This document shows, piece by piece, positions 11,041-35,971 of a stretch of DNA of 64,000 nucleotides. The position numbers and the translations under genes were made by a program. How positions within the stretch are numbered: position 1 is the stretch's first letter; every line of letters begins with the position of its first letter. This DNA comes from Escherichia coli (GTDB taxonomy: Bacteria > Pseudomonadota > Gammaproteobacteria > Enterobacterales > Enterobacteriaceae), in assembly GCF_009931435.1 (NCBI RefSeq), contig NZ_CP043414.1. One strand, written 5' to 3'. Below the pieces are notes generated by a model. The model was not told where the DNA came from. It was given only the letters and a program-made list of their open reading frames with translations, and did not search any database.

Positions 11041-11587
11041 CGGGGAAGCCATTCTGCTGCGTAACATCACCGTCAGCGCCACCATGCAACTACCGGACAA
11101 AGATATGTCCGGACAGTCAACCAGCACCACGAGCGCCCAGCAGGGAAACAAGGCTAAAGAGCTGCGCGTGTCGGGGGTTATTGATTTTAACGATGAAGCT
11201 ATTCTGACCCGTATTTTTCAGCTTGCGGAGGCAACAGAAAGCAACGGTGCTAAAAAAACATATCGCATTGCTAACGCTACCGCGAAGGCAATCAATATGC
11301 GACAGGGGGTGTTTTCTGGTGGCATTGATGCCACGGAACAACAGGGAAAAATGCACTGGCAGATCACCTTTACTCTCAGGGAAAAATTAAGCGTGCCAGA
11401 GAAAGCATCCGCACGCAGCGGTTCGCAGAAAACCATCGCCAGACAGCAGACCCAGAATGGCAGCGAACAGGTACCAGACAAAGGCATGAATACGCAAAGT
11501 TCGTTCTGGAAAAAAATCAATGATGCCGTTGGCTCTGGTCTGGATGCTGTTGGCATCGGGAGCGTGAAAGAGGAAGGGAAAACATGA
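11012..11587 (+). CDS. tail protein, possibly gpU-like
   Basis: 191 aa; segment LRVSGVIDFND...MHWQITFTLRE loosely resembles the P2 gpU family as I recall it; immediately 5' of a hub-like gene, matching P2 U-D order. Confidence 0.35.
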   Translation: MTQMIVLALDGEAILLRNITVSATMQLPDKDMSGQSTSTTSAQQGNKAKELRVSGVIDFNDEAILTRIFQLAEATESNGAKKTYRIANATAKAINMRQGVFSGGIDATEQQGKMHWQITFTLREKLSVPEKASARSGSQKTIARQQTQNGSEQVPDKGMNTQSSFWKKINDAVGSGLDAVGIGSVKEEGKT

Positions 11588-13281
11588 AATTGATACAACG
11601 CTGCATGATTAATGGCGAACGGGTGGAAATTGCCGATATAAGCCTTGTTCTTACCCTGAATGCTGCCGGTCGTGGCTTCATTTCTGTTAACAATCTGTCA
11701 CCCGAACACAGCCTTGCCGGCGCAATGGTACAAATTGATCTCGGCCGTGACGGTGAAGCATGGCGCTATTTCTCCGGCTACATTGAGCGCGATCAACCTG
11801 CTGAAAATGGCTCACGTCGCCTTTTTATTCGTGAAGCGGCTGCTGTGCTGGATTTTGATTTCCCTTGCTCCATGCAACACCCGACGTTGCGGGGGGTACT
11901 CGATAATCTGGGGCGACAAAGCGGTATCGTTTTTATCACTCCGGATGCGGATTATGCCAGTATACCAACTCCCTACATCACCCACAGCGGCAGCGGAGCA
12001 CAACTGCTCAGCCAACTGGGGCGAGCATTCAGTATCAGCGATTACGTCTGGCACCCTATGCCGGACGGTTCTGTATTTGTGGGAAGCGCAGCTGATTCAC
12101 GATTTGCCAGTATTACAATGCCGGATATTCCGCAACAGTACACACTCGGGCAAAGCGGCGGAAACAGCATCGACATCATGTTTATGGAAACTGTGCGACC
12201 GGGCGTGAACCTACCGGCCGGGCGCATTACCCGTGTAGCCCTCAACAACGAGAAAATGACCCTGACATGGGAGCGCCTTACCGCCACGGGTACCCCTGTT
12301 TCCAAATCACCATTACGCAGACAAATGGAAACACAGTTCCCAGAACTGGCCAGCGGTACGCTACATACCCGGCTGGCGCGCGTCATTGCGCCAACGGAGC
12401 CCACCACCCTGGGCGACGTGGCCGACAGTTTCCGCCCACGCTACGCCGTCGATGTGCAGTTGCTTGATGAGAACGGCAACGATAAAAGCGACACGCCCGT
12501 TTACCCGGCAGTACCGCTCCCCGTCCCCATGGCTGGCAGTGAGGCGGGATGTTTTGCCTACCCACCGGCAGGCACCATCGTGGAAATATCCAACATTGAA
12601 GGACGTCCGGACAAACCCGTTATCAGGCAAATCTTACCCGCTGGCCATAACCTGCCTGATGTAAAGCCCGGCGAACAGCTGCAGCAACAGCGCGCAGAAG
12701 TGTTTCAGCGCGTCACGACTGACGGAAGCTGGCACAGAGAAACCGATCAGCAAATCAGGGAGCATTCAGCCAGACGAACCATTAACAGCGATCAGGAAGA
12801 ACGCACAACAACAACCAGAACAACAACAGTACAGGCAAACGACATAACCAGCGTTCTGGGAACCAGCAAGCTGATGACAGGCCAGACAGAACACATTACT
12901 ACTGGTCATTATGCGATCGCAGCCGGTGAGCATATCCAGATGGTAGCGCAGGATTTGCTGACTAAACTCAAAGGGGCGACATCCACGATTGAGCGCGACC
13001 TTACTGAAAACGTGGGAGGCCGCAGAACATGCCGGGCGGACGGTGGTCTGGAGTTTACAGCCCCGACAGTATTTATTGGTCGCGGTGGCTCACGGGAAAA
13101 ATCCGGACTTAATCTGCTGACGTTGTTGATTGATATTCTGGATCTGGTTCAGTTGCTGGCCACACACACTGCAAACCACACCCACAGCAACACCGGCGCA
13201 CCAACAAACAACAGCGAACTTGCCGCAGACGCCAAACAGGCTACGAGCCTGCGCGAAAAATACGGTGACCTTATCGCCTGA
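11584..13281 (+). CDS. baseplate hub protein, gpD/gp27/VgrG-like
   Basis: 565 aa; N-terminal pattern ...ISLVLTLNAAGRGF...AMVQIDLGRDGEAWRYFSGYIER is typical of Phage_GPD/VgrG N-domains; Thr-rich stretch EERTTTTRTTTVQ; last gene of the tail operon. Confidence 0.5.
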   Translation: MKLIQRCMINGERVEIADISLVLTLNAAGRGFISVNNLSPEHSLAGAMVQIDLGRDGEAWRYFSGYIERDQPAENGSRRLFIREAAAVLDFDFPCSMQHPTLRGVLDNLGRQSGIVFITPDADYASIPTPYITHSGSGAQLLSQLGRAFSISDYVWHPMPDGSVFVGSAADSRFASITMPDIPQQYTLGQSGGNSIDIMFMETVRPGVNLPAGRITRVALNNEKMTLTWERLTATGTPVSKSPLRRQMETQFPELASGTLHTRLARVIAPTEPTTLGDVADSFRPRYAVDVQLLDENGNDKSDTPVYPAVPLPVPMAGSEAGCFAYPPAGTIVEISNIEGRPDKPVIRQILPAGHNLPDVKPGEQLQQQRAEVFQRVTTDGSWHRETDQQIREHSARRTINSDQEERTTTTRTTTVQANDITSVLGTSKLMTGQTEHITTGHYAIAAGEHIQMVAQDLLTKLKGATSTIERDLTENVGGRRTCRADGGLEFTAPTVFIGRGGSREKSGLNLLTLLIDILDLVQLLATHTANHTHSNTGAPTNNSELAADAKQATSLREKYGDLIA

Positions 13282-13880
13282 TCACCGGGCATACCCCCCC
13301 ATAAACGCCCATCACGCAACGCACGGCTCCGGTCGTGCGTTTTCATATCTGCCACCTGATTAATGCGTTCTGCGTGCCATTCTGGCGCTGTATGCGCACA
13401 CCGCGTAAACGGTGTGACGTAAAGCGTGAGGTGACGTAAACCGCGCTACCCCCTCCAACCCGCGGGTTTCGTGTCGAAACAGTTTTTCAGTTTTCTGCCG
13501 TGCAAAAATGACCGCCAGCCCGCGCAGCAACTGAGGGAAAAGCGAAGATCTGAAATTTCACGCTTTGAAATTTTTTGCAGTTTTCAAAGTGGTTTTTACG
13601 ATCGCACAAATGGCCGGAGCAATAAAACCGCATGATATTAAAAGAGTTTTCATACTTTACGCGAGACAAAAAAACGATCACGAAAGGATCGCATCAAACA
13701 GCCATCAAACAAAGAAGGCAGACACGGCGCGGCCTGCACAAAATTAAGCTCCAAAATAAAACTGAAAAAAAGGATCGCAACAAGAAGAAAAGCGCGTAAA
13801 ACGATCGCTGCTGATGTGGCGTTTCTTTATACAAGCTGCTATTTGCGATATGCTGAACACATCAACCTGTGGAGTGCATT

Positions 13881-14507
13881 ATGAAACGAAAATCAAAGTC
13901 TGCTGCCATTGCTGCTATTACTACAGCTCTGACAGCATCACTGGCTCCGGTGCCAGCTAAAAGCACGATACTACCAACAACAGTTATTGAATCCGCGACA
14001 CACGCCAGAGTGGTTTCAATGCTTACATTTGAGCATCATGATGGTCAGGTGTTTCTGCCTCTCGAAGAAGCTATTGAATATATCAACGGGCTGAATGACA
14101 ACATGCGCGCCGCGCTCAATGCAGTCATTGAAGAACGACAGAACAGAGGCAAGGGAGCACTGTTTACTGACAAAACCGCAAAAATCATAAAAATATGCGA
14201 AGAGTCAATTAAGCAGCACACCCGTGTTAAAGAGGCTGTCAAAATTGTAATGGATCCGGATAACCTGGCAAAAATGTATCCGGATAGCCTGGAGCAAAGA
14301 ATCGCCTATCGCAATAAACTGGTTCGTTTTGGTCGGGCAATTGCGCAGGGAGAGTTTATCGCTCGTGATGCCATCAACACCATCAAACGAAGCACCGCAC
14401 CAGACAAAACAACCAGCCTGGGCAATACGCTGTCTGACGGAAATGTGAAAGCAATGATTATTGCCGAGCATAAAAACATGGGACTCCCGGCACCGGAGTT
14501 TTCCTGA
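13881..14507 (+). CDS. hypothetical secreted protein (signal peptide)
   Basis: MKRKSKSAAIAAITTALTASLA-PVP has an n-region, h-region and A-x-A site; about 208 aa; stop overlaps the next ATG (TGATG). Confidence 0.5.
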   Translation: MKRKSKSAAIAAITTALTASLAPVPAKSTILPTTVIESATHARVVSMLTFEHHDGQVFLPLEEAIEYINGLNDNMRAALNAVIEERQNRGKGALFTDKTAKIIKICEESIKQHTRVKEAVKIVMDPDNLAKMYPDSLEQRIAYRNKLVRFGRAIAQGEFIARDAINTIKRSTAPDKTTSLGNTLSDGNVKAMIIAEHKNMGLPAPEFS

Positions 14508-14887
14508 TGGCAAGCAAAGTAAGCATTCATAAAGATGTTGAATACCAGGACATTGCAAAAGTTTACGGAAAGGCTCTGGAAAACTGGTTAAATACCGGTG
14601 TTCTCCCTGACAGATTCGGCAATGAAGGGCAGTGGGAAGATAACGCAAGATTATGTGGTTCGTTTGTATATAAATTACACATAAGACTACCGTCAGAACC
14701 ACCATGGAAGAAAAGCAAAGCCCAAATAGACAGAACTTCAAATATCTATCTGGTTTATACAAGGCACTGGATGGATTATGACAATATACAAATCATCAGC
14801 ATCATGGCCCCAGATGCTCACGAAAAAGCCAAAACTTCTTTCATGGCTGAACTGGAAAGACGGGCTGAAGAATTCCAGAACTCATAA
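14507..14887 (+). CDS. YafO-like toxin family protein
   Basis: 126 aa; GVLPDRFG, KLHIRL, IYLVYTRHW and a C-terminal AE..RRAEEF line up with E. coli YafO as recalled from memory (GVLPDTFG, HIHL, HLVY...). Confidence 0.5.
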   Translation: MASKVSIHKDVEYQDIAKVYGKALENWLNTGVLPDRFGNEGQWEDNARLCGSFVYKLHIRLPSEPPWKKSKAQIDRTSNIYLVYTRHWMDYDNIQIISIMAPDAHEKAKTSFMAELERRAEEFQNS

Positions 14888-14906
14888 ATTGCCTGATTTT
14901 CTCTCA

Positions 14907-14940
14907 GAAACCCGCAGCGTAAAAACTGTGGGTTTTCTTT
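14907..14940 (+). terminator. rho-independent terminator after the YafO-like gene
   Basis: gaaacccgcag...ctgtgggttt hairpin followed by TTTTTC. Confidence 0.5.
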
Positions 14941-15178
14941 TTGCTACCCTGATACGTGAGGGTAGCACTCAAAGTGAGGCAATATGTAGGCAACCTATTT
15001 AATACGTAAAAATTAATGCATTAAATGGATATTTACTAGCATGGGTACTGGCTTAAAATATCACAACCCTGTTTTATAACGTACTGAATTTATTAGGTGT
15101 GACGGTTTTCCAATGGGGCTTCCGACATTACGTTCAGCTGATGCTTTTCTTATGTAACGAGAAGACATATATTGGTAA

Positions 15179-29859: not shown

Positions 29860-29890
29860 GAAGGCCATCCGTCAGGATGGCCTTTTTGCG
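29860..29890 (+). terminator. rRNA operon terminator
   Basis: aggccatcc-gtca-ggatggcct hairpin followed by TTTTTG directly after the 5S gene. Confidence 0.8.
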
Positions 29891-29945: not shown

Positions 29946-30178
29946 TCCCACATAAGCCAGATTCAACAGCGAATACGGCTTCCCCAAATTGCCCACTTAA
30001 ATACTTCCTCCTTACCAGAAATCTATCCTTAAGCTCCTTAATAACCATTTTCCTGCTAACTAAATTCATGGTTAAGGTTGCATAATGATGCGCAACAAAT
30101 GCATAACATTTTCTTTACCAAAAAAATAAACAACAGCGACCGACAAAAGCATCGGATTACGGCAGGAGACATAATGGC

Positions 30179-31477
30179 ATGGCTGAAAGTACTGTAACGG
30201 CAGACAGCAAACTGACAAGTAGTGATACTCGTCGCCGCATCTGGGCAATTGTGGGGGCCTCTTCAGGTAATTTGGTCGAGTGGTTCGATTTCTATGTCTA
30301 CTCGTTCTGTTCACTCTACTTCGCCCACATCTTCTTCCCTTCCGGGAACACGACGACTCAACTACTGCAAACAGCAGGTGTTTTTGCTGCGGGATTTCTG
30401 ATGCGCCCAATAGGCGGTTGGCTATTTGGCCGGATAGCCGATAAACATGGTCGCAAAAAATCGATGCTGTTATCGGTGTGTATGATGTGTTTCGGCTCAC
30501 TGGTTATCGCCTGTTTGCCAGGCTACGAAACAATCGGTACCTGGGCTCCGGCATTATTGCTTCTTGCTCGTTTATTCCAGGGATTATCCGTTGGCGGAGA
30601 ATATGGCACCAGCGCCACCTATATGAGTGAAGTTGCCGTTGAAGGGCGCAAAGGTTTTTACGCATCATTTCAGTATGTGACGTTGATCGGCGGGCAACTG
30701 CTAGCTCTACTGGTTGTCGTGGTTTTACAACACACCATGGAAGACGCTGCACTCAGAGAGTGGGGATGGCGTATTCCTTTCGCGTTAGGAGCTGTGTTAG
30801 CTGTTGTGGCGTTGTGGTTACGTCGTCAGTTAGATGAAACTTCACAACAAGAAACACGCGCTTTAAAAGAAGCTGGTTCTCTAAAAGGATTATGGCGCAA
30901 TCGCCGTGCATTCATCATGGTTCTCGGTTTTACCGCTGCAGGCTCCCTTTGTTTCTATACCTTCACCACTTATATGCAGAAGTATCTGGTAAATACTGCG
31001 GGAATGCATGCCAACGTGGCGAGTGGCATTATGACTGCCGCATTGTTTGTATTCATGCTTATTCAACCACTTATTGGCGCGCTGTCGGATAAGATTGGTC
31101 GTCGTACCTCAATGTTATGTTTCGGTTCTCTGGCAACCATTTTTACCGTTCCTATTCTCTCAGCATTGCAGAACGTTTCTTCGCCTTATGCCGCTTTTGG
31201 TCTAGTGATGTGCGCCCTGCTGATAGTGAGTTTTTATACTTCAATCAGTGGAATACTGAAGGCTGAGATGTTCCCGGCACAGGTTCGCGCATTAGGCGTT
31301 GGTCTGTCATATGCGGTCGCCAATGCTATATTTGGTGGTTCGGCGGAGTACGTAGCGTTGTCACTGAAATCAATAGGAATGGAAACAGCCTTCTTCTGGT
31401 ATGTGACCTTGATGGCCGTGGTGGCGTTTCTGGTTTCACTAACATTGCACCGTAAAGGAAAAGGGATGCGTCTTTAG
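30179..31477 (+). CDS. kgtP: alpha-ketoglutarate permease (MFS)
   Basis: 432 aa [39 protein letters not shown]...; recognised as KgtP. Confidence 0.95.
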
Positions 31478-31797
31478 TGATGCGCCAGTTGCCAGACGGT
31501 ATAGCCAGTAGTTGCACCGGCGACATCCCAGGTAAAATCTTTCCAGCTCCAGCCGCTCCCCTCGGGGCGGCTATCCCAAAGTTCTTTTGACGCGCCCAGC
31601 CCAACAGAGAACATCAGCCCGAAAGTGGCACTGCGATCGCGACTCATCCCCTGATGCTGTGAATATTCATTTCCGGCAGCGGAAAGCATCGCCGAGGCGA
31701 TAAAGTGTTGAGCTTTATCCTGCCCGCTCCAGCTATCGTTAGCCATATGGCTGCATCCAGAAAGTAACAATAGCGAACAGACAAAAAGAATACGCAA
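31474..31797 (-). CDS. yfiM: lipoprotein YfiM
   Basis: 107 aa, signal + lipobox LLSGCS. Confidence 0.9.
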
Positions 31798-33310: not shown

Positions 33311-35971
33311 TCATGATTCCTCGCGCTGGGCAAGATTTAGCGTAAGCCCAACGATCCCCTCTTCGAGCTGGATATCAACGTTAAACCCGAGCTTGCGGGC
33401 CAGCGCCACCATGCCACGATTGTTTGGCATCGTAATACCATTCAGACGTTGCAGTCCGTGATCTCGCGTATAGGTAATCAACTTTTCCATTAAGCGTCGA
33501 CCTAAGCCTAACCCTTTGAGATCCGAGCGAACCAGCACGGCAAATTCGGCATCGATGTTATCAGGGTCGGAGATCGCACGCGTGACGCCGAGGATCTCTT
33601 CCGTTTGATCAATACGTCGTACCGCTACAAATGCCATTTCCCGATCGTAGTCGATCTGCGTCATGTTGGCTAAATCTTCATGGGTAAATTCGTTGATCTC
33701 GCTAAAGTAGCGGTAATAAAGATCTTCTTTGGTGACTCGCGAAATGAACTGCTGAAGTTGTGGCTCATCTTCTGGCAAAATCGGGCGGAACAAGCAGCGT
33801 TCACCGTTTTTCAATTCTACCCATTCTTCCAGCTGATGAGGATAAGGGCGGACTGCCAGGCGACTCTCGTTATCGCCTTCAAACGGAGCGATATCCAGCG
33901 TGACATCAAGCGCGGTAAATTCATTGCCGGAAGCCAGCAAAGGATGAATATCCAGCCTCTGAATCTCCGGACAATCGACAATCAAGTTAGAAACCTGCAC
34001 CAGTAACTGGCTTAATCCCGCCACATCCAGCGGGCGTAGCGCACTACGTGCACGAATCTTTTTACTTTTGATCCCCTGAATGACCAGATAACGTGCCAGG
34101 TTCATGTTCAGCGGCGGTAGTGCGACGACGGCTTGATCTTCAGGACGCCACTCCACACCGCCTTCGCCCAGCATGATCAACGGTCCGAAAACCGGATCGT
34201 GCTCAACCACTACTCGCAACTCCTGAGCGCCAGCACGGTTAGCCATACTTTGTACCAACAGGCCGTGGATACACGCCTGCGGCCAGGCCATTTTTACGCG
34301 ATCGAAAATAGCATTTGCGGCTTGCTGGACTTCATTGGCTGTACGCAAGTAGAGCATGACGCCCTGAACTTCTGATTTATGTGGAATATCCGGCGAGCGT
34401 AATTTTAGTGCCACCGGATAACCAATCTGTTCGGCAATATGCACAGCCTCGGTGCTGTCAGTGGCAATCCAGGTGGGAAGTGTGTTCATGCCGTACGCTT
34501 GCAGGATAGGCTGAACTTCATGGGTATCGAGCGACGTTGCCCCTTCGACAATGGCCTGTTGCAACAGAAGATGCGCTTCTGCGGTATTAGAGGTCAGATT
34601 GCTGGGCAACGCCGGCGTTTCGCGTAGTTGCTTCTGATTACGCCGGTACTCCACCATATGCATAAAAGCGGTGATGGTTCCTTCCGGGGTGCGGTAGGTC
34701 GGCAGCCCGGCTTCGCTGAATAAACGTCGTGCCTCTTGCGAGGAGTGCTCGCCGCACCAGTTCGTCAGCAGAGAAACATACTTGCTGCGGGGATGATGCT
34801 TTACCGCTTCAATTAATGCATGCGCGCTTTCTGTTGCGGGAGCTGCGGCGCTGGGCGAATGAATAACCATCAGCGCATCAAAATCCTGACTGTGGAGCAG
34901 AATATCCAGCGTTTTAATATAATGCTCACTGCTGGCGTCATCGCGAAGATCGAGTGGGTTAGAGATTGCCACATGTTCTGGCAGTGCATCGCGCAATTTC
35001 TGGCAGGTTTCTTCACTGAGCGTAGCCAGCTTGCCATTGCGTGACCATAAGGCATCCAGCGCCAGTGCGGCAGGTGCTGCACCGTTGCTGATAATCATCA
35101 GCCGCTCTCCACGTAGCGGGCGCATATGGCTAAGGGTTTCGACTGCCGAAAACAGCTCGTGGGTATCCTGCACTCGCAACAAACCGGCGCGCTGAATAGC
35201 TGCATCCCAAGCAGGATCCATTCCTGCCGTGGTGTTCAGTAGTCGTTGCGCCGCCGGGCTACGTCCGCTTTTAATCACCAGAATCGGTTTATTACGTGAG
35301 GCGCTACGTGCAGCCGAAACAAAACGTCGCGCATCACTTAATTGTTCGAGGTAGAGCAGGATTGCACTAGTTTTGCTGTCGCGCGCCAGATAATCGAGCA
35401 ATTCATCAACGTCGATATCCAGACTGTCGCCGAGAGCAATAAAGTAGGAAAAGCCCATTTCCCGCTGTTGTGCCCAGTCGAGGATGGTATTGGAGACGGC
35501 GGCAGACTGCGAAATAAACGCCAGTTTGCCGCGTTTAATCGGTACAGGCGAAAAGCTGGCATTCAGGCCTTGCCAGGGGGCCAGTAATCCCAGACTGTTT
35601 GGCCCCAGCAGACGCATGTTATGGCGCAGGGCGCAGGCGCGGAGATCTTCGTGTTGCGATGCCGGGGCGGAAAGAATAATGCAGGTTTTACAGCCTTTCT
35701 CGCCGAGCTCTTCCAGAAGAGTAAGATTGCGGCTGGCATTGGTACATAAAACCGCAAGATCGGGTGTAAAGGGCAGGCTGGCAATATCCGGCCAGGCCAA
35801 CACACCCAACACCGCTTTCCAGGCAGGCGTCACCGGGAGTACCGGCCCGTTAAATCCCCCCGCCAGCAGGTTACGCATCATCAGGTAACCTGCGCGATTG
35901 GGTTTCATCGATGCGCCAATTACCGCAATCGATTTTGGTCGCAGTAGTGCTTCCAGTCCTCGCTGACTCAT
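33311..35971 (-). CDS. patZ: protein lysine acetyltransferase PatZ (Pka/YfiQ)
   Basis: 886 aa MSQRGLEALLRPKSIAVIGAS...; CoA-binding/acyl-CoA synthetase-like N-terminus, GNAT C-terminus. Confidence 0.95.
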   Translation of the reverse strand: MSQRGLEALLRPKSIAVIGASMKPNRAGYLMMRNLLAGGFNGPVLPVTPAWKAVLGVLAWPDIASLPFTPDLAVLCTNASRNLTLLEELGEKGCKTCIILSAPASQHEDLRACALRHNMRLLGPNSLGLLAPWQGLNASFSPVPIKRGKLAFISQSAAVSNTILDWAQQREMGFSYFIALGDSLDIDVDELLDYLARDSKTSAILLYLEQLSDARRFVSAARSASRNKPILVIKSGRSPAAQRLLNTTAGMDPAWDAAIQRAGLLRVQDTHELFSAVETLSHMRPLRGERLMIISNGAAPAALALDALWSRNGKLATLSEETCQKLRDALPEHVAISNPLDLRDDASSEHYIKTLDILLHSQDFDALMVIHSPSAAAPATESAHALIEAVKHHPRSKYVSLLTNWCGEHSSQEARRLFSEAGLPTYRTPEGTITAFMHMVEYRRNQKQLRETPALPSNLTSNTAEAHLLLQQAIVEGATSLDTHEVQPILQAYGMNTLPTWIATDSTEAVHIAEQIGYPVALKLRSPDIPHKSEVQGVMLYLRTANEVQQAANAIFDRVKMAWPQACIHGLLVQSMANRAGAQELRVVVEHDPVFGPLIMLGEGGVEWRPEDQAVVALPPLNMNLARYLVIQGIKSKKIRARSALRPLDVAGLSQLLVQVSNLIVDCPEIQRLDIHPLLASGNEFTALDVTLDIAPFEGDNESRLAVRPYPHQLEEWVELKNGERCLFRPILPEDEPQLQQFISRVTKEDLYYRYFSEINEFTHEDLANMTQIDYDREMAFVAVRRIDQTEEILGVTRAISDPDNIDAEFAVLVRSDLKGLGLGRRLMEKLITYTRDHGLQRLNGITMPNNRGMVALARKLGFNVDIQLEEGIVGLTLNLAQREES

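What the first reader, a model, noticed from the sequence alone, without database searches (positions are those of the whole stretch)
13595..13810. Long non-coding leader with five iterated GATC-containing motifs and A/T-rich direct repeats
The roughly 590-bp gap between the hub gene stop (13281) and the next ORF (13881) contains the motif A(A/C)GATC(G/A)C five times (near 13598, 13674, 13685, 13770, 13800), direct repeats gaaatttcacgctttgaaatttt and cagtttttcagttttc, and a gtgacgtaaa duplication at 13415-13440. Clustered Dam sites with iterons are typical of phage or plasmid origins and of Dam/SeqA-controlled promoters. This may be a replication or regulatory element of the prophage or cargo, or may hide a small RNA.
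Basis: seen in the sequence. Interest (0 to 1): 0.4.

Follow-up and report, generated by a model that had tools for sequence, protein, structure and literature searches.

The report
Prophage cos packaging site with Dam sites
The "non-coding leader" is the DNA-packaging (cos) site of an HP1-like prophage of E. coli, followed by a swap point for cargo genes. Its GATC sites sit at offsets from the cut site that are conserved across related phages, which suggests, but does not prove, that Dam methylation modulates packaging.

Summary
GATC occurs at 13600, 13676, 13687, 13773 and 13803, and the three repeat sets exist. The motif as written fits only 3 of the 5 sites. In this window alone the cluster is only marginally above chance.

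This is a cis-acting phage element, but not a replication origin, a promoter switch or a small RNA. The 565-aa gene is the homologue of HP1/HP2 orf35, the last late gene before the genome end in HP2, phiO18P, ESSI-2, SW5 and K139. Window 13446-13463 (CTACCCCCTCCAACCCGC) aligns with their annotated or record-terminal cohesive ends.

The GTGACGTAAA duplication is the left-arm repeat. An inverted copy lies at about +210 and co-varies across phages. The CAGTTTT and GAAATTT repeats are family-wide right-arm motifs. A P4-like satellite shares this region of the prophage and, apart from it, only its ogr/delta gene and a 42-bp block.

The four backbone GATCs in the finding interval lie at +155, +231, +242 and +328 from the core. 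The same offsets (+155, +166, +230, +240) recur in ESSI-2-like phages, where the flanking bases vary and GATC is 3.5-fold enriched.

GATC 13803 belongs to an inserted cassette (208-aa ORF plus YafO) that replaces hok at a cos-adjacent hotspot (junction 13777-13780).

A role for Dam or SeqA in packaging is inferred only. Some relatives lack the GATCs.

The parts
11584..13281 (+). It is the last late gene before cos in this phage family.
   Evidence: tblastn hits 75 phage records: 47% identity to SW5, 45% to ESSI-2, 43% to HP2, 38% to phiO18P. The gene lies within about 200 bp of the record end in HP2, SW5, ESSI-2, phiO18P and K139. No Pfam match.
13319..13345 (+). Hairpin ACGCACG-N8-CGTGCGT followed by TTTTCA; likely terminator of the late operon.
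   Evidence: Read from the sequence. Conserved in L002, L029 and satellite L007. Missed by the scan because it has only 4 T. K139 has an annotated terminator at the same place.
13404..13440 (+). Left-arm repeats. CGTAAA occurs three times (13404, 13418, 13435) and includes the GTGACGTAAA duplication (13414-13423, 13431-13440). Proposed binding sites for a packaging protein.
   Evidence: Coordinates. The equivalent left-arm repeats are CACGGAAA in HP2, phiO18P and SW5 and CACGTAAA in the window clade. The copy nearest the core (-12 to -14) has an inverted copy at +210 to +220 with the same sequence variant in each lineage.
13446..13463 (.). Predicted cos core / cohesive-end sequence, CTACCCCCTCCAACCCGC.
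   Evidence: Aligns with the annotated 16-nt cosL/cosR of phiO18P (CTCATCCGCTCCCGCC), the 15-nt terminal repeat of ESSI-2 (CTACACCGCACCCGC), the SW5 record ends and HP2's CTTCCTC, all 166-234 bp after the orf35 stop. Single copy in the window. Lies inside a 41-bp stretch identical in satellite L007.
13466..13495 (+). Palindrome GTTTCGTGTCGAAAC followed by CAGTTTTTCAGTTTTC. The family-wide TTTTTCAGTTTT block lies at about +40.
   Evidence: TTTTTCAGTT is present in HP2, ESSI-2, L034, the satellite and the ESSI-2-group consensus.
13512..13537 (+). GC-rich block CCGCCAGCCCGCGC..CTGAGGG. The family consensus is GCCAG..GCGCC..CTGG.
   Evidence: Conserved in all groups, including phiO18P and Pseudomonas phi3.
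13547..13550 (.). GATC at +102 from the first base of the core.
   Evidence: Conserved in L002, L029, L032 and L034. Similar offsets occur in Pasteurella CFP3 (+102), HP2 (+93/+114) and some ESSI-2-like arms (+104).
13550..13584 (+). CTGAAATTTCACGCTTTGAAATTTTTTGCAGTTTT: a set of CTGAAA/TGAAA and TTTCAG/TTGCAG hexamers in opposite orientations.
   Evidence: ESSI-2-group consensus AACTGAAAAgAtTGAAAaGaATTTCAgt.tTTTTCAgT is 80-99% conserved per column. Present in K139, HP2 and the satellite.
13600..13603 (.). GATC at +155. It overlaps TTTACG (13595-13600), an inverted CGTAAA.
   Evidence: GATC at +155 in 27 of 47 non-redundant ESSI-2-like arms, and at +166 in 25 of 47. Moved by 10 bp in L032/L034.
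13633..13665 (+). TGATATTAAAAGAGTTTTCATACTTTACGCGAG: conserved block ending in the inverted copy of the left-arm repeat (TTTACGCG, 13656-13663, at about +211).
   Evidence: Kept in the satellite. HP2 has ATTTTCCGTG at +220, phiO18P at +214 and SW5 at +214.
13676..13690 (.). GATC pair 11 bp apart, at +231 and +242. The two also form a short palindrome, CGATC-N7-GATCG.
   Evidence: Conserved in L002, L029, L032 and L034. ESSI-2-like arms have GATC at +227 to +232 (27 arms) and +239 to +242 (6 arms). An 11-bp gap is the commonest adjacent spacing, with 31 cases.
13726..13737 (+). Conserved block GGCGCGGCCTGC (family consensus AAGCC..GGCGCGG.CTG).
13760..13776 (+). AACTGAAAAAAA followed by GATC at +328 (13773). 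This is the last conserved element of the phage backbone.
   Evidence: ACTGAAAA is conserved across groups. The GATC is conserved in the window clade.
13777..13780 (.). Module junction: end of the cos right arm and start of the variable cargo slot.
   Evidence: Window 13201-13776 is 96% identical to L002, and similarity then stops. Window 13781-14961 is 98% identical to L006.
13781..14961 (+). Cargo cassette: upstream 100 bp (holding GATC 13803 and a weak promoter-like TTTATA-N17-TATGCT at 13826-13854), a 208-aa ORF (13881-14507) and a YafO-family toxin (14507-14887). It occupies the slot that holds hok in most relatives.
   Evidence: YafO_toxin Pfam E = 1e-27. The promoter was read by eye (8 of 12 matches) and falls below the scan threshold.
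14905..14969 (+). Shared block downstream of the cargo slot. It also follows hok in L002, L003 and satellite L007, and marks the right edge of the slot.

Best explanation
The gap is the cos (cohesive-end) DNA-packaging site of an HP1-like Peduoviridae prophage integrated between pheL and raiA. It is followed by the boundary of a cos-adjacent cargo slot.

**How it is built.** The phage terminase would cut at the C-rich core, 13446-13463. The core is flanked by recognition elements:
- CGTAAA repeats on the left (13404-13440).
- On the right, TTTTTCAGTTTT, a GC-rich block, a set of CTGAAA/TTTCAG hexamers, and an inverted copy of the left-arm repeat at about +211.

Together these would fold about 330 bp of DNA into a packaging complex.

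**The GATCs.** The four backbone GATCs inside the finding interval (+155, +231, +242, +328) and one further left (+102) sit between these elements. Selection appears to maintain them. The most likely reason is that their Dam-methylation state, read directly or through SeqA binding to same-face pairs, modulates assembly or cutting at cos, in the manner of P1 pac.

**The fifth GATC.** The site at 13803 lies in the upstream region of an unrelated cassette (208-aa ORF plus YafO) that replaced hok.

**Shown versus inferred.** Shown: homology of position, core and architecture to known cos sites; conservation of the GATCs; the module junction. Inferred: cleavage at this core, which proteins bind, and any effect of methylation.
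For: **Synteny.**
- The upstream gene is the HP1/HP2 orf35 homologue, which ends 170-215 bp before the record end or annotated cos in HP2, SW5, ESSI-2 and phiO18P.
- 57 IMG/VR relatives carry the exact ESSI-2 end sequence 166-234 bp after the stop.
- The same prophage has P2-family portal, terminase, capsid and ogr genes.

**Core and architecture.** Core alignment and family-wide arm architecture are shown. The left-arm repeat and its inverted copy at +210 to +220 co-vary: CACGTAAA in the window clade, CACGGAAA in HP2, phiO18P and SW5.

**Satellite.** A P4-like satellite (toprim primase, integrase, delta, hok) shares 13318-13584 at 83% identity, including 41 identical bp across the core. Otherwise it shares only ogr/delta and a 42-bp block. 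[quoted passage not shown]

**GATC conservation.**
- Positions are conserved in the window clade beyond background: 4 of 5 against 26% of tetramers, and 5 of 5 against 44%.
- The same offsets occur in the ESSI-2-like group, which BLAST did not align to the gap: 161 GATC observed against 46 expected. GATC is the only strongly enriched palindromic tetramer there, its flanks vary, and the commonest spacings are 11 bp and 21-22 bp.
- GATC clusters also occur in the right arms of HP2, CFP3, phiO18P, SW5 and K139.

**Controls.**
- phi3-like arms from high-GC loci show no enrichment (5 observed, 6.3 expected). Lower-GC loci show 42 observed against 18.4 expected.
- P2 cos has no GATC nearby.

**Family context.** Members of this family encode their own adenine methylases: HP1, K139 and PV94 (PMC7556043; PMC8537503).

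**Cargo junction.**
Against: - No physical data exist for this phage lineage. The cohesive end is predicted by alignment only, and its exact length and boundaries are uncertain.
- The GATCs are not universal. The satellite has 0 of 5. L075 has none and L103 and L071 have one each. The isolated Yersinia phage YenM_324 has the ESSI-2-type core but no GATC in its right arm. The sites therefore cannot be essential for packaging.
- The contrast between Dam-plus and Dam-minus hosts rests on GC content as a stand-in for host, plus one named Pseudomonas lineage.
- The sequences compared are related, so part of the positional recurrence is inheritance.
- In this window alone the cluster is only marginally above chance.
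Confidence: 0.85

Rival explanations
1. The GATC cluster is a Dam-dependent transcriptional switch (OxyR, Lrp or SeqA type, as in mom, agn43, pap, gtr or opvAB) that controls the first gene to the right: the 208-aa ORF and YafO here, hok in relatives.
For: The GATCs lie upstream of a rightward gene and have A/T-tract flanks. An 11-bp pair is present. Relatives carry a genuine mom-like promoter with three GATCGAT further right, so this phage lineage does use Dam-sensitive promoters.
Against: No sigma-70-like promoter and no OxyR half-sites in the gap. The array is conserved with cos, not with any downstream gene: what follows is hok, the YafO cassette, or attP and a leftward int in HP2, K139 and phiO18P. 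The cassette brings its own upstream 100 bp. The offsets are fixed relative to the cos core across groups.
Confidence: 0.08
2. The region is a replication origin or plasmid-type iteron element with SeqA/Dam control.
For: Iterated short motifs, A/T-rich stretches and clustered GATCs resemble oriC and P1 oriR. The prophage also carries ParM and a partition protein.
Against: No DnaA box within one mismatch and no adjacent initiator gene. The phage has a P2-type replication endonuclease; in P2 (from my own knowledge, not checked here) the origin lies inside that gene. It is about 25 kb away. No match to any plasmid record. The homologous site in relatives is the virion genome end.
Confidence: 0.02
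3. The region encodes a small RNA or a small protein.
For: It is a 599-bp unannotated gap. Weak terminator-like hairpins lie on the minus strand at 13692-13674 and 13737-13718. Short basic ORFs exist, for example the 55-aa ORF at 13632-13799.
Against: No Rfam match at E<=1. Folding is no better than shuffles on either strand. The ORFs change frame and length between close relatives, and none is conserved. The T-run of the 13692 hairpin is lost in L029. The conserved blocks are explained as DNA motifs that occur in both orientations.
Confidence: 0.03
4. The cos assignment is right, but the GATCs carry no methylation-related function. They persist through shared ancestry, or as parts of protein-binding motifs that happen to contain GATC.
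For: Viable or apparently intact relatives lack them: YenM_324, L075 and the satellite. The sequences compared are related. There is a preference for G before GATC.
Against: The flanks vary freely while the tetramer is kept. GATC is 3.5-fold over expectation and is the only strongly enriched palindromic tetramer. Sites turn over to nearby positions rather than disappearing (L034, the L072 type). Spacings cluster at 11 and 21-22 bp. There is no enrichment in high-GC phi3-like arms or at P2 cos.
Confidence: 0.35

Closest known systems
cos sites of HP1/HP2 (Haemophilus), phiO18P (Aeromonas), K139 (Vibrio) and ESSI-2 (Cronobacter): HP1-like Peduoviridae
   Same: Same position, directly after the orf35 homologue and on the att/int side of the genome. 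C-rich core of the form CT...CCCGC(C). ACG(G/T)AAA repeats to the left with an inverted copy at about +210 to +220. TTTTTCAGTT and CTGAAA/TTTCAG motifs to the right.
   Different: The core sequence (CTACCCCCTCCAACCCGC) and the repeat variant (CGTAAA rather than CGGAAA) are lineage-specific. blastn finds no match to any phage record. In this lineage a cargo slot and a com-methyltransferase module lie between cos and att. The ends have not been determined physically.
P2/P4 cos and the cos-adjacent anti-phage hotspots (Ziermann & Calendar 1990 as cited in PMC9122126; Rousset et al. 2022, PMC9122126)
   Same: Helper phage and satellite share essentially only the cos region. Variable cargo (toxin-antitoxin genes and an AAA_15 ATPase annotated in RefSeq as an ATP-dependent nuclease) sits directly beside cos, with a sharp junction.
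   Different: P2's cos lies between gene A/old and Q, has a different 19-nt end (GGCGAGGCGGGGAAAGCAC), and has no GATC within about 200 bp on either side. Here cos follows the tail genes. Anti-phage activity of the cargo was not tested.
Bacteriophage P1 pac site (seven TGATCA/G hexamers; methylation-dependent cleavage, PMC10028697)
   Same: A packaging-initiation site with a cluster of Dam sites, in a phage family whose members often encode their own adenine methylase.
   Different: P1 uses headful packaging from pac. The P1 hexamer TGATCA/G is not the repeated unit here: GATC flanks vary in the window, and only K139 shows [CT]GATCA four times. The GATCs lie 100-330 bp to one side of the cut rather than flanking it. 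Methylation dependence is untested, and some relatives lack the sites.
Lambda cos (cosQ-cosN-cosB, with R sites for the small terminase subunit and an IHF bend)
   Same: General logic: a nicking site flanked by iterated protein-binding repeats spread over about 200-300 bp. This comparison rests on my own knowledge of lambda.
   Different: No sequence similarity. No IHF consensus in the gap. The repeats lie on both sides in inverted orientation.

Membership tests
cos packaging site of HP1-like Peduoviridae | Lies immediately downstream of the last late gene (the orf35 homologue), at the position of the virion genome ends | tested here: met
   orf35 homologues end 166-234 bp before the annotated or record-terminal cohesive ends in HP2, SW5, ESSI-2, phiO18P and 57 IMG/VR loci. 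The window core starts 165 bp after the stop.
cos packaging site of HP1-like Peduoviridae | Core sequence alignable with known cohesive-end sequences | tested here: met
   gcgCTACCCCCTCCAACCCGCggg compared with phiO18P gcgCTCATCCGCTCCCGCCtgcggg (annotated cosL/cosR), ESSI-2 CTACACCGCACCCGC (terminal repeat), the SW5 ends and HP2 CTTCCTCccccgcc. This is similarity of a short C-rich sequence, supported by conserved flanks.
cos packaging site of HP1-like Peduoviridae | Conserved flanking repeat architecture | tested here: met
   Left-arm ACG(G/T)AAA repeats with a co-varying inverted copy at +210 to +220, plus the TTTTTCAGTTTT, GCCAG..CTGG, CTGAAA/TTTCAG and ACTGAAAA blocks.
cos packaging site of HP1-like Peduoviridae | Cognate P2/HP1-type terminase, portal and capsid genes in the same element | tested here: met
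   RefSeq annotation of the near-identical prophage (99.7% over the gap) lists the portal, large terminase, gpM small terminase, GPO scaffold, P2-family capsid and ogr. These genes lie outside the 64-kb window.
cos packaging site of HP1-like Peduoviridae | Cleaved in vivo to give complementary single-stranded ends in virion DNA | not testable with these tools
   Needs virion DNA end mapping.
cos-adjacent variable cargo hotspot (P2/P4 type, PMC9122126) | Different gene cassettes at one slot directly beside cos in otherwise similar elements | tested here: met
   The slot holds hok in L002, L003 and L007, and the 208-aa ORF plus YafO in the window, L001 and L004. It is bounded by 13776/13781 on the left and the shared 14905-14969 block on the right. 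phi3 has hicAB and a reverse transcriptase around its cos.
cos-adjacent variable cargo hotspot (P2/P4 type, PMC9122126) | The cargo confers anti-phage defence | not testable with these tools
   Domain content only: YafO toxin and an AAA_15/AAA_21 ATPase.
Dam-methylation-gated packaging site (P1 pac type) | Cluster of GATC sites that is an integral, conserved part of the packaging site | tested here: met
   Conserved offsets, 3.5-fold enrichment and variable flanks. However, the sites are absent from some relatives.
Dam-methylation-gated packaging site (P1 pac type) | Repeated TGATCA/G hexamers flanking the cut site | tested here: not met
   The window contexts are aGATCt, cGATCg, cGATCa, gGATCg and gGATCg, all on one side of the core.
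Dam-methylation-gated packaging site (P1 pac type) | Cleavage depends on methylation state | not testable with these tools
   Needs in vitro or in vivo cleavage assays with substrates of defined methylation.
Dam/OxyR or Dam/Lrp phase-variation switch (mom, agn43, gtr, opvAB, pap) | GATCs embedded in OxyR or Lrp sites overlapping or upstream of a promoter of a fixed downstream operon | tested here: not met
   No ATAG-N7-CTAT and no sigma-70 match. The downstream gene varies or is absent in relatives. Lrp sites are too degenerate to exclude by pattern search.
Iteron or DnaA-type replication origin | DnaA boxes or Rep iterons next to an initiator gene; ability to replicate | tested here: not met
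   No DnaA box within one mismatch, no adjacent rep gene and no plasmid homologue. Replication ability was not tested.
Known small RNA family | Match to a curated covariance model, or structure stability above shuffles | tested here: not met
   Zero Rfam matches at E<=1. z-scores of -0.47 and -0.06.

The most novel reading that the evidence does not exclude
HP1-like phages of Dam-positive hosts carry, in the right arm of cos, a helically phased array of GATC sites at fixed offsets from the cut site (about +100, +155/+166, +230/+241 and +328). The methylation state of these sites, fully methylated or hemimethylated, read directly by the packaging proteins or through SeqA, would gate or time cos cleavage. 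Packaging would then be coupled to completion of replication or to the phage-encoded methylase. This would be a cos-phage counterpart of P1 pac. My five literature searches turned up no description of such an arrangement.
Probability: 0.3. Interest if true: 0.7.

Novelty: new member of a known kind. Interest (0 to 1): 0.45.

Why it matters
**Annotation.** The gap is unannotated in every matching E. coli record listed by the searches, out of 66 matching genomes. Identifying it as cos fixes the virion genome ends, the packaging orientation and the true boundary of the cargo slot for this prophage lineage.

**Satellite.** It explains why a P4-like satellite shares little else with the phage: beyond the cos region, only its ogr/delta gene and a 42-bp block.

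**Cargo hotspots.** It extends the cos-adjacent cargo hotspot idea from P2/P4 to the HP1-like branch in E. coli. The junction is precise (13777-13780), and hok, a YafO cassette and an AAA_15-family ATPase (annotated in RefSeq as an ATP-dependent nuclease) are exchanged in this cos-proximal region.

**Dam sites.** The conserved, phased GATC array beside cos gives a concrete, cheaply testable hypothesis for why HP1, K139 and other family members carry adenine methylases. One cited paper (PMC7556043) says the function of such phage-encoded methylases is still not well understood.

Tried and rejected
**Transposable (Mu-like) phage.** The com-methyltransferase module and insertion next to both raiA and serS suggested this. 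It was rejected when the full prophage showed a tyrosine integrase and P2-family genes.

**Similarity searches of the gap.** blastn (distant mode) against 50,697 phage records and 72,556 plasmids found nothing. Homologues came only from E. coli chromosomes, and then through the neighbouring protein.

**P2 cos.**
- A search for the P2 cos 19-mer with up to 5 mismatches in loci L001-L007 found nothing.
- By-eye similarity of the reverse-complemented core to P2 cos was weak and was dropped.

**Other readings of the gap.**
- Small RNA: no Rfam match and no structural signal.
- Small ORFs, including the 55-aa basic ORF at 13632-13799: frameshifted in L002 and L003 and absent in L029 and L034.
- Promoter-like reading of TGATAT..ATACTT: the spacing is wrong (13-14 bp), and the block is better explained as carrying the inverted CGTAAA repeat.
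- AAAGGATC as a specific protein-binding octamer: it recurs in several phages, but the ESSI-2-group flanks are too variable.

**Junction and cassette origin.** I first read the cassette in L006 as mobile among P2-like prophages. L006 actually carries an orf35 fragment fused to the cassette, so it is a deletion derivative of an HP1-like element.

**Dam-minus control.** Only one named Pseudomonas lineage was available, plus GC content as a stand-in for host among IMG/VR loci. This is suggestive, not decisive.

**Failed call.** One literature search failed on a term that was too short.
Full report
**1. What is in the sequence**

The gap between the stop of the 565-aa ORF (13281) and the next ATG (13881) is 599 bp. 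GATC starts at 13280, 13547, 13600, 13676, 13687, 13773 and 13803.

The other two read AGGATCGC. The relaxed form fits all five, against 11 matches in the whole window.

All three repeat sets are present:
- GTGACGTAAA at 13414-13423 and 13431-13440
- CAGTTTTTCAGTTTTC at 13480-13495
- GAAATTTCACGCTTTGAAATTTT at 13552-13574

GATC density in the window as a whole is as expected (232 in 64 kb). Five in 216 bp has a per-window Poisson P of about 0.0013 (my calculation from those counts), and a denser cluster sits inside a gene near 33520. From this window alone the cluster is only marginally unusual.

**2. Genomic context**

The window is E. coli chromosome. The gap is 99.7% identical to strain 7_33_46A and occurs in 66 of 5,426 complete E. 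coli genomes. The searches list no annotated feature over it, and it has no match in the phage or plasmid collections.

It lies near the right end of a prophage inserted between pheL and raiA. That prophage has a tyrosine integrase, a P2-type replication endonuclease, ogr, portal, terminases and a P2-family capsid, plus a tail module with DUF2586/DUF2590 proteins.

**3. Identity of the upstream gene and the cos inference**

tblastn with the 565-aa protein hits 75 phage records:

| Phage | Host genus | Identity |
|---|---|---|
| SW5 / SI7 | Salmonella | 47% |
| ESSI-2 | Cronobacter | 45% |
| vB_YenM_324 | Yersinia | 46% |
| HP1 / HP2 (orf35) | Haemophilus | 42-43% |
| phiO18P | Aeromonas | 38% |
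| K139 | Vibrio | 32% |
| phi3 | Pseudomonas | 34% |

In the linear records this gene is the last one before the genome end:
- HP2: stop at 31312, record end at 31508.
- SW5: stop at 29871, record end at 30046.
- ESSI-2: the gene ends 198 bp from the record end.
- phiO18P: stop at 33770, annotated cosR at 33970-33985.

Joining the record ends and comparing with the window gives the following:

| Phage | Sequence across the join |
|---|---|
| phiO18P | ccacggaatccgcg\|CTCATCCGCTCCCGCC\|tgcggg |
| ESSI-2 | aaaaacggca\|CTACACCGCACCCGC\|ctgcaag |
| SW5 | gacggaaacggcgCTACACCGC\|GCACCCGCCtgcg |
| HP2 | ggaaaatccaCTTCCTCccccgcc |
| window | gacgtaaaccgcg\|CTACCCCCTCCAACCCGC\|gggttt |

The window core is 13446-13463 and begins 165 bp after the stop. 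In 57 IMG/VR relatives the exact ESSI-2 end sequence lies 166-234 bp after the stop.

**4. Conserved architecture**

- Left arm: ACG(G/T)AAA repeats.
- About +40: TTTTTCAGTTTT.
- A GC-rich GCCAG..GCGCC..CTGG block.
- +105 to +150: CTGAAA/TGAAA and TTTCAG hexamers in opposite orientation.
- About +190 to +225: TGATAT..TTTTACGTGA.
- AAGCC..GGCGCGGCCTG.
- About +315: ACTGAAAAA.

The block at +210 to +220 is the inverted copy of the left-arm repeat and changes with it. It reads CACGTAAA on both sides in the window, L029, L034 and the satellite. It reads CACGGAAA(AT) on both sides in HP2, phiO18P and SW5. That covariation points to a sequence-specific protein bound on both sides of the cut.

**5. 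Satellite**

Locus L007 has a toprim primase, an integrase, an ogr/delta-like gene and hok. By annotation it is P4-like. It shares window 13318-13584 at 83% identity, with 41 identical bp across the left repeat, the core and the palindrome. Otherwise it shares only ogr/delta and a 42-bp block with the prophage. [quoted passage not shown]

**6. The GATC sites**

Relative to the first base of the core, the window GATCs are at +102, +155, +231, +242 and +328, plus +358 in the cassette.

*Within the window clade.* The positions are kept in all 27 loci that were checked, including relatives with 86% and 61% protein identity.
- Against L034 the right arm is 64% identical and only 26% of tetramers are conserved. 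Even so, 4 of 5 GATCs are conserved, and the fifth is replaced by one 10 bp away.
- Against L029, 5 of 5 are conserved where 44% of tetramers are.

*In the ESSI-2-like group.* This comprises 47 non-redundant arms with a median pairwise identity of 53%. blastn (distant mode) against the phage collection, which includes ESSI-2, SW5 and SI7, found no match to the gap.
- GATC recurs at +28 (39 arms), +155 (27), +166 (25), +227 to +232 (27) and +239 to +242 (6).
- The flanking bases vary.
- GATC is 3.5-fold over first-order expectation (161 against 46). It is by far the most enriched palindromic tetramer.
- Adjacent spacings peak at 11 bp (31 cases) and 21-22 bp (5 cases).

*In more distant members.* HP2 (93, 114, 166), Pasteurella CFP3 (+88, +102, +151), phiO18P (93, 112, 121, 311), SW5 and K139 (four [CT]GATCA sites) also have right-arm clusters.

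*Controls.*
- P2 cos has no GATC within about 200 bp on either side.
- Pseudomonas phi3 and BIBS67 have one.
- Among phi3-like IMG/VR arms, those from loci with GC at or above 0.60 have 5 GATC against 6.3 expected. Those below 0.60 have 42 against 18.4. Host identity was inferred only from GC content.

*Exceptions.*
- The satellite has 0 of 5.
- L075 has none; L103 and L071 have one each.
- The isolated Yersinia phage YenM_324 has the ESSI-2 core and arm motifs but no right-arm GATC.

The sites therefore appear to be under selection in most lineages but are not essential.

**7. What the gap is not**

- No Rfam match.
- RNA folding is no better than shuffles on either strand.
- No ORF is conserved across relatives.
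- No sigma-70-like promoter.
- No DnaA box, IHF consensus, OxyR half-site pair, Ogr-type TGT-N12-ACA or LexA box.

**8. The junction and the fifth GATC**

Window 13201-13776 matches hok-type relatives at 96% identity, and similarity then stops. Window 13781-14961 (the upstream 100 bp, the 208-aa ORF and the YafO toxin) is 98% identical to a locus in other genomes. The block 14905-14969 also follows hok in L002, L003 and L007.

The cassette therefore occupies the same slot as hok, directly beside the cos right arm. GATC 13803 belongs to the cassette.

Further right, an AAA_15/AAA_21 ATPase gene replaces com and the N-terminal part of a PF01555 methyltransferase that relatives retain. This resembles the cos-adjacent hotspots described for P2 and P4 (PMC9122126).

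**9. Mechanism**

*Shown.* Position, core and architecture are homologous to known cos sites. The GATCs are conserved. The cargo junction is sharp.

*Inferred.*
- The terminase nicks at 13446-13463.
- A repeat-binding protein, most simply the small terminase subunit, occupies the left repeats and their inverted copy at +211.
- The GATCs, often in same-face pairs next to these sites, make assembly or cutting sensitive to Dam methylation or SeqA, as proposed for P1 pac (PMC10028697).

[quoted passage not shown] One of the cited papers says the role of such phage-encoded methylases is not well understood (PMC7556043; PMC8537503).

My confidence is about 0.85-0.9 that this is cos, about 0.7 that the GATCs are under selection, and about 0.3 that they gate packaging through methylation.

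**10. Verdict**

The finding is a real cis-acting element with a largely ordinary identity: an unannotated cos site of an HP1-like prophage, plus a cargo junction. The residual interest lies in the conserved, phased Dam-site array beside cos, which is testable.

Noticed in passing
L002 7125-7185 (relative of the window prophage); remnant in window from about 17049, 3' end not mapped: Relatives carry a Mu mom-like module at the prophage right end. A promoter region with three GATCGAT motifs (agATCGATgcaataaatccGATCGATaaaaacGATCGATttg) precedes a Com zinc-ribbon gene, which overlaps a PF01555 N6/N4 methyltransferase. In the window only the 3' part of the methyltransferase survives.
   Followed up: partly
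L006 6824-7000: In a P2-like prophage at serS, the 208-aa-ORF plus YafO cassette is fused to an internal fragment of an orf35 homologue (...KPGEQLQQQRAEVFQ...TDQQI). This is a deletion derivative of an HP1-like element that has lost cos and the right arm.
   Followed up: partly
ESSI-2-like loci at about +345 from the cos core (for example ESSI-2, L047, L048, L055): A LexA-box-like palindrome (TACTGT-N8-ACAGTA) follows the right arm, suggesting an SOS-controlled first gene to the right of cos in that group. It is absent from the window gap.
   Followed up: no
window 33520-33735: The densest GATC cluster in the window (8 in 216 bp) lies inside the 886-aa minus-strand ORF 33311-35971. It contains no tandem repeat. 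It is probably a compositional or codon effect.
   Followed up: partly
L005 16294-17572 (same prophage, left of the window): The integrated prophage carries ParM and a plasmid-partition protein next to the replication gene. It also has an IS66-family insertion splitting a DUF4761 gene.
   Followed up: no
L119/L120 (Pseudomonas phage phi3) and L206 (BIBS67): In the Pseudomonas relatives, hicAB lies between orf35 and the cos-like core. In phi3 a reverse transcriptase gene lies about 1.3 kb to the right of the core, with a long non-coding stretch upstream of it (retron-like?). BIBS67 also has a second, truncated core-like sequence about 460 bp before the full one.
   Followed up: no
window 13881-14507: The 208-aa ORF that overlaps the YafO toxin start (ATGA overlap at 14507) has no Pfam match and a hydrophobic, signal-peptide-like N-terminus. 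It sits where a YafN-type antitoxin would be expected. One RefSeq record labels its homologue 'SufA', which looks like a mis-annotation.
   Followed up: partly
ESSI-2-like loci, left arm at about -72 from the core (L053, L082, L108, ESSI-2, YenM_324): A GATC also recurs at a fixed position in the left arm of the ESSI-2-like group. It is retained even in YenM_324, which has lost all its right-arm GATCs.
   Followed up: no
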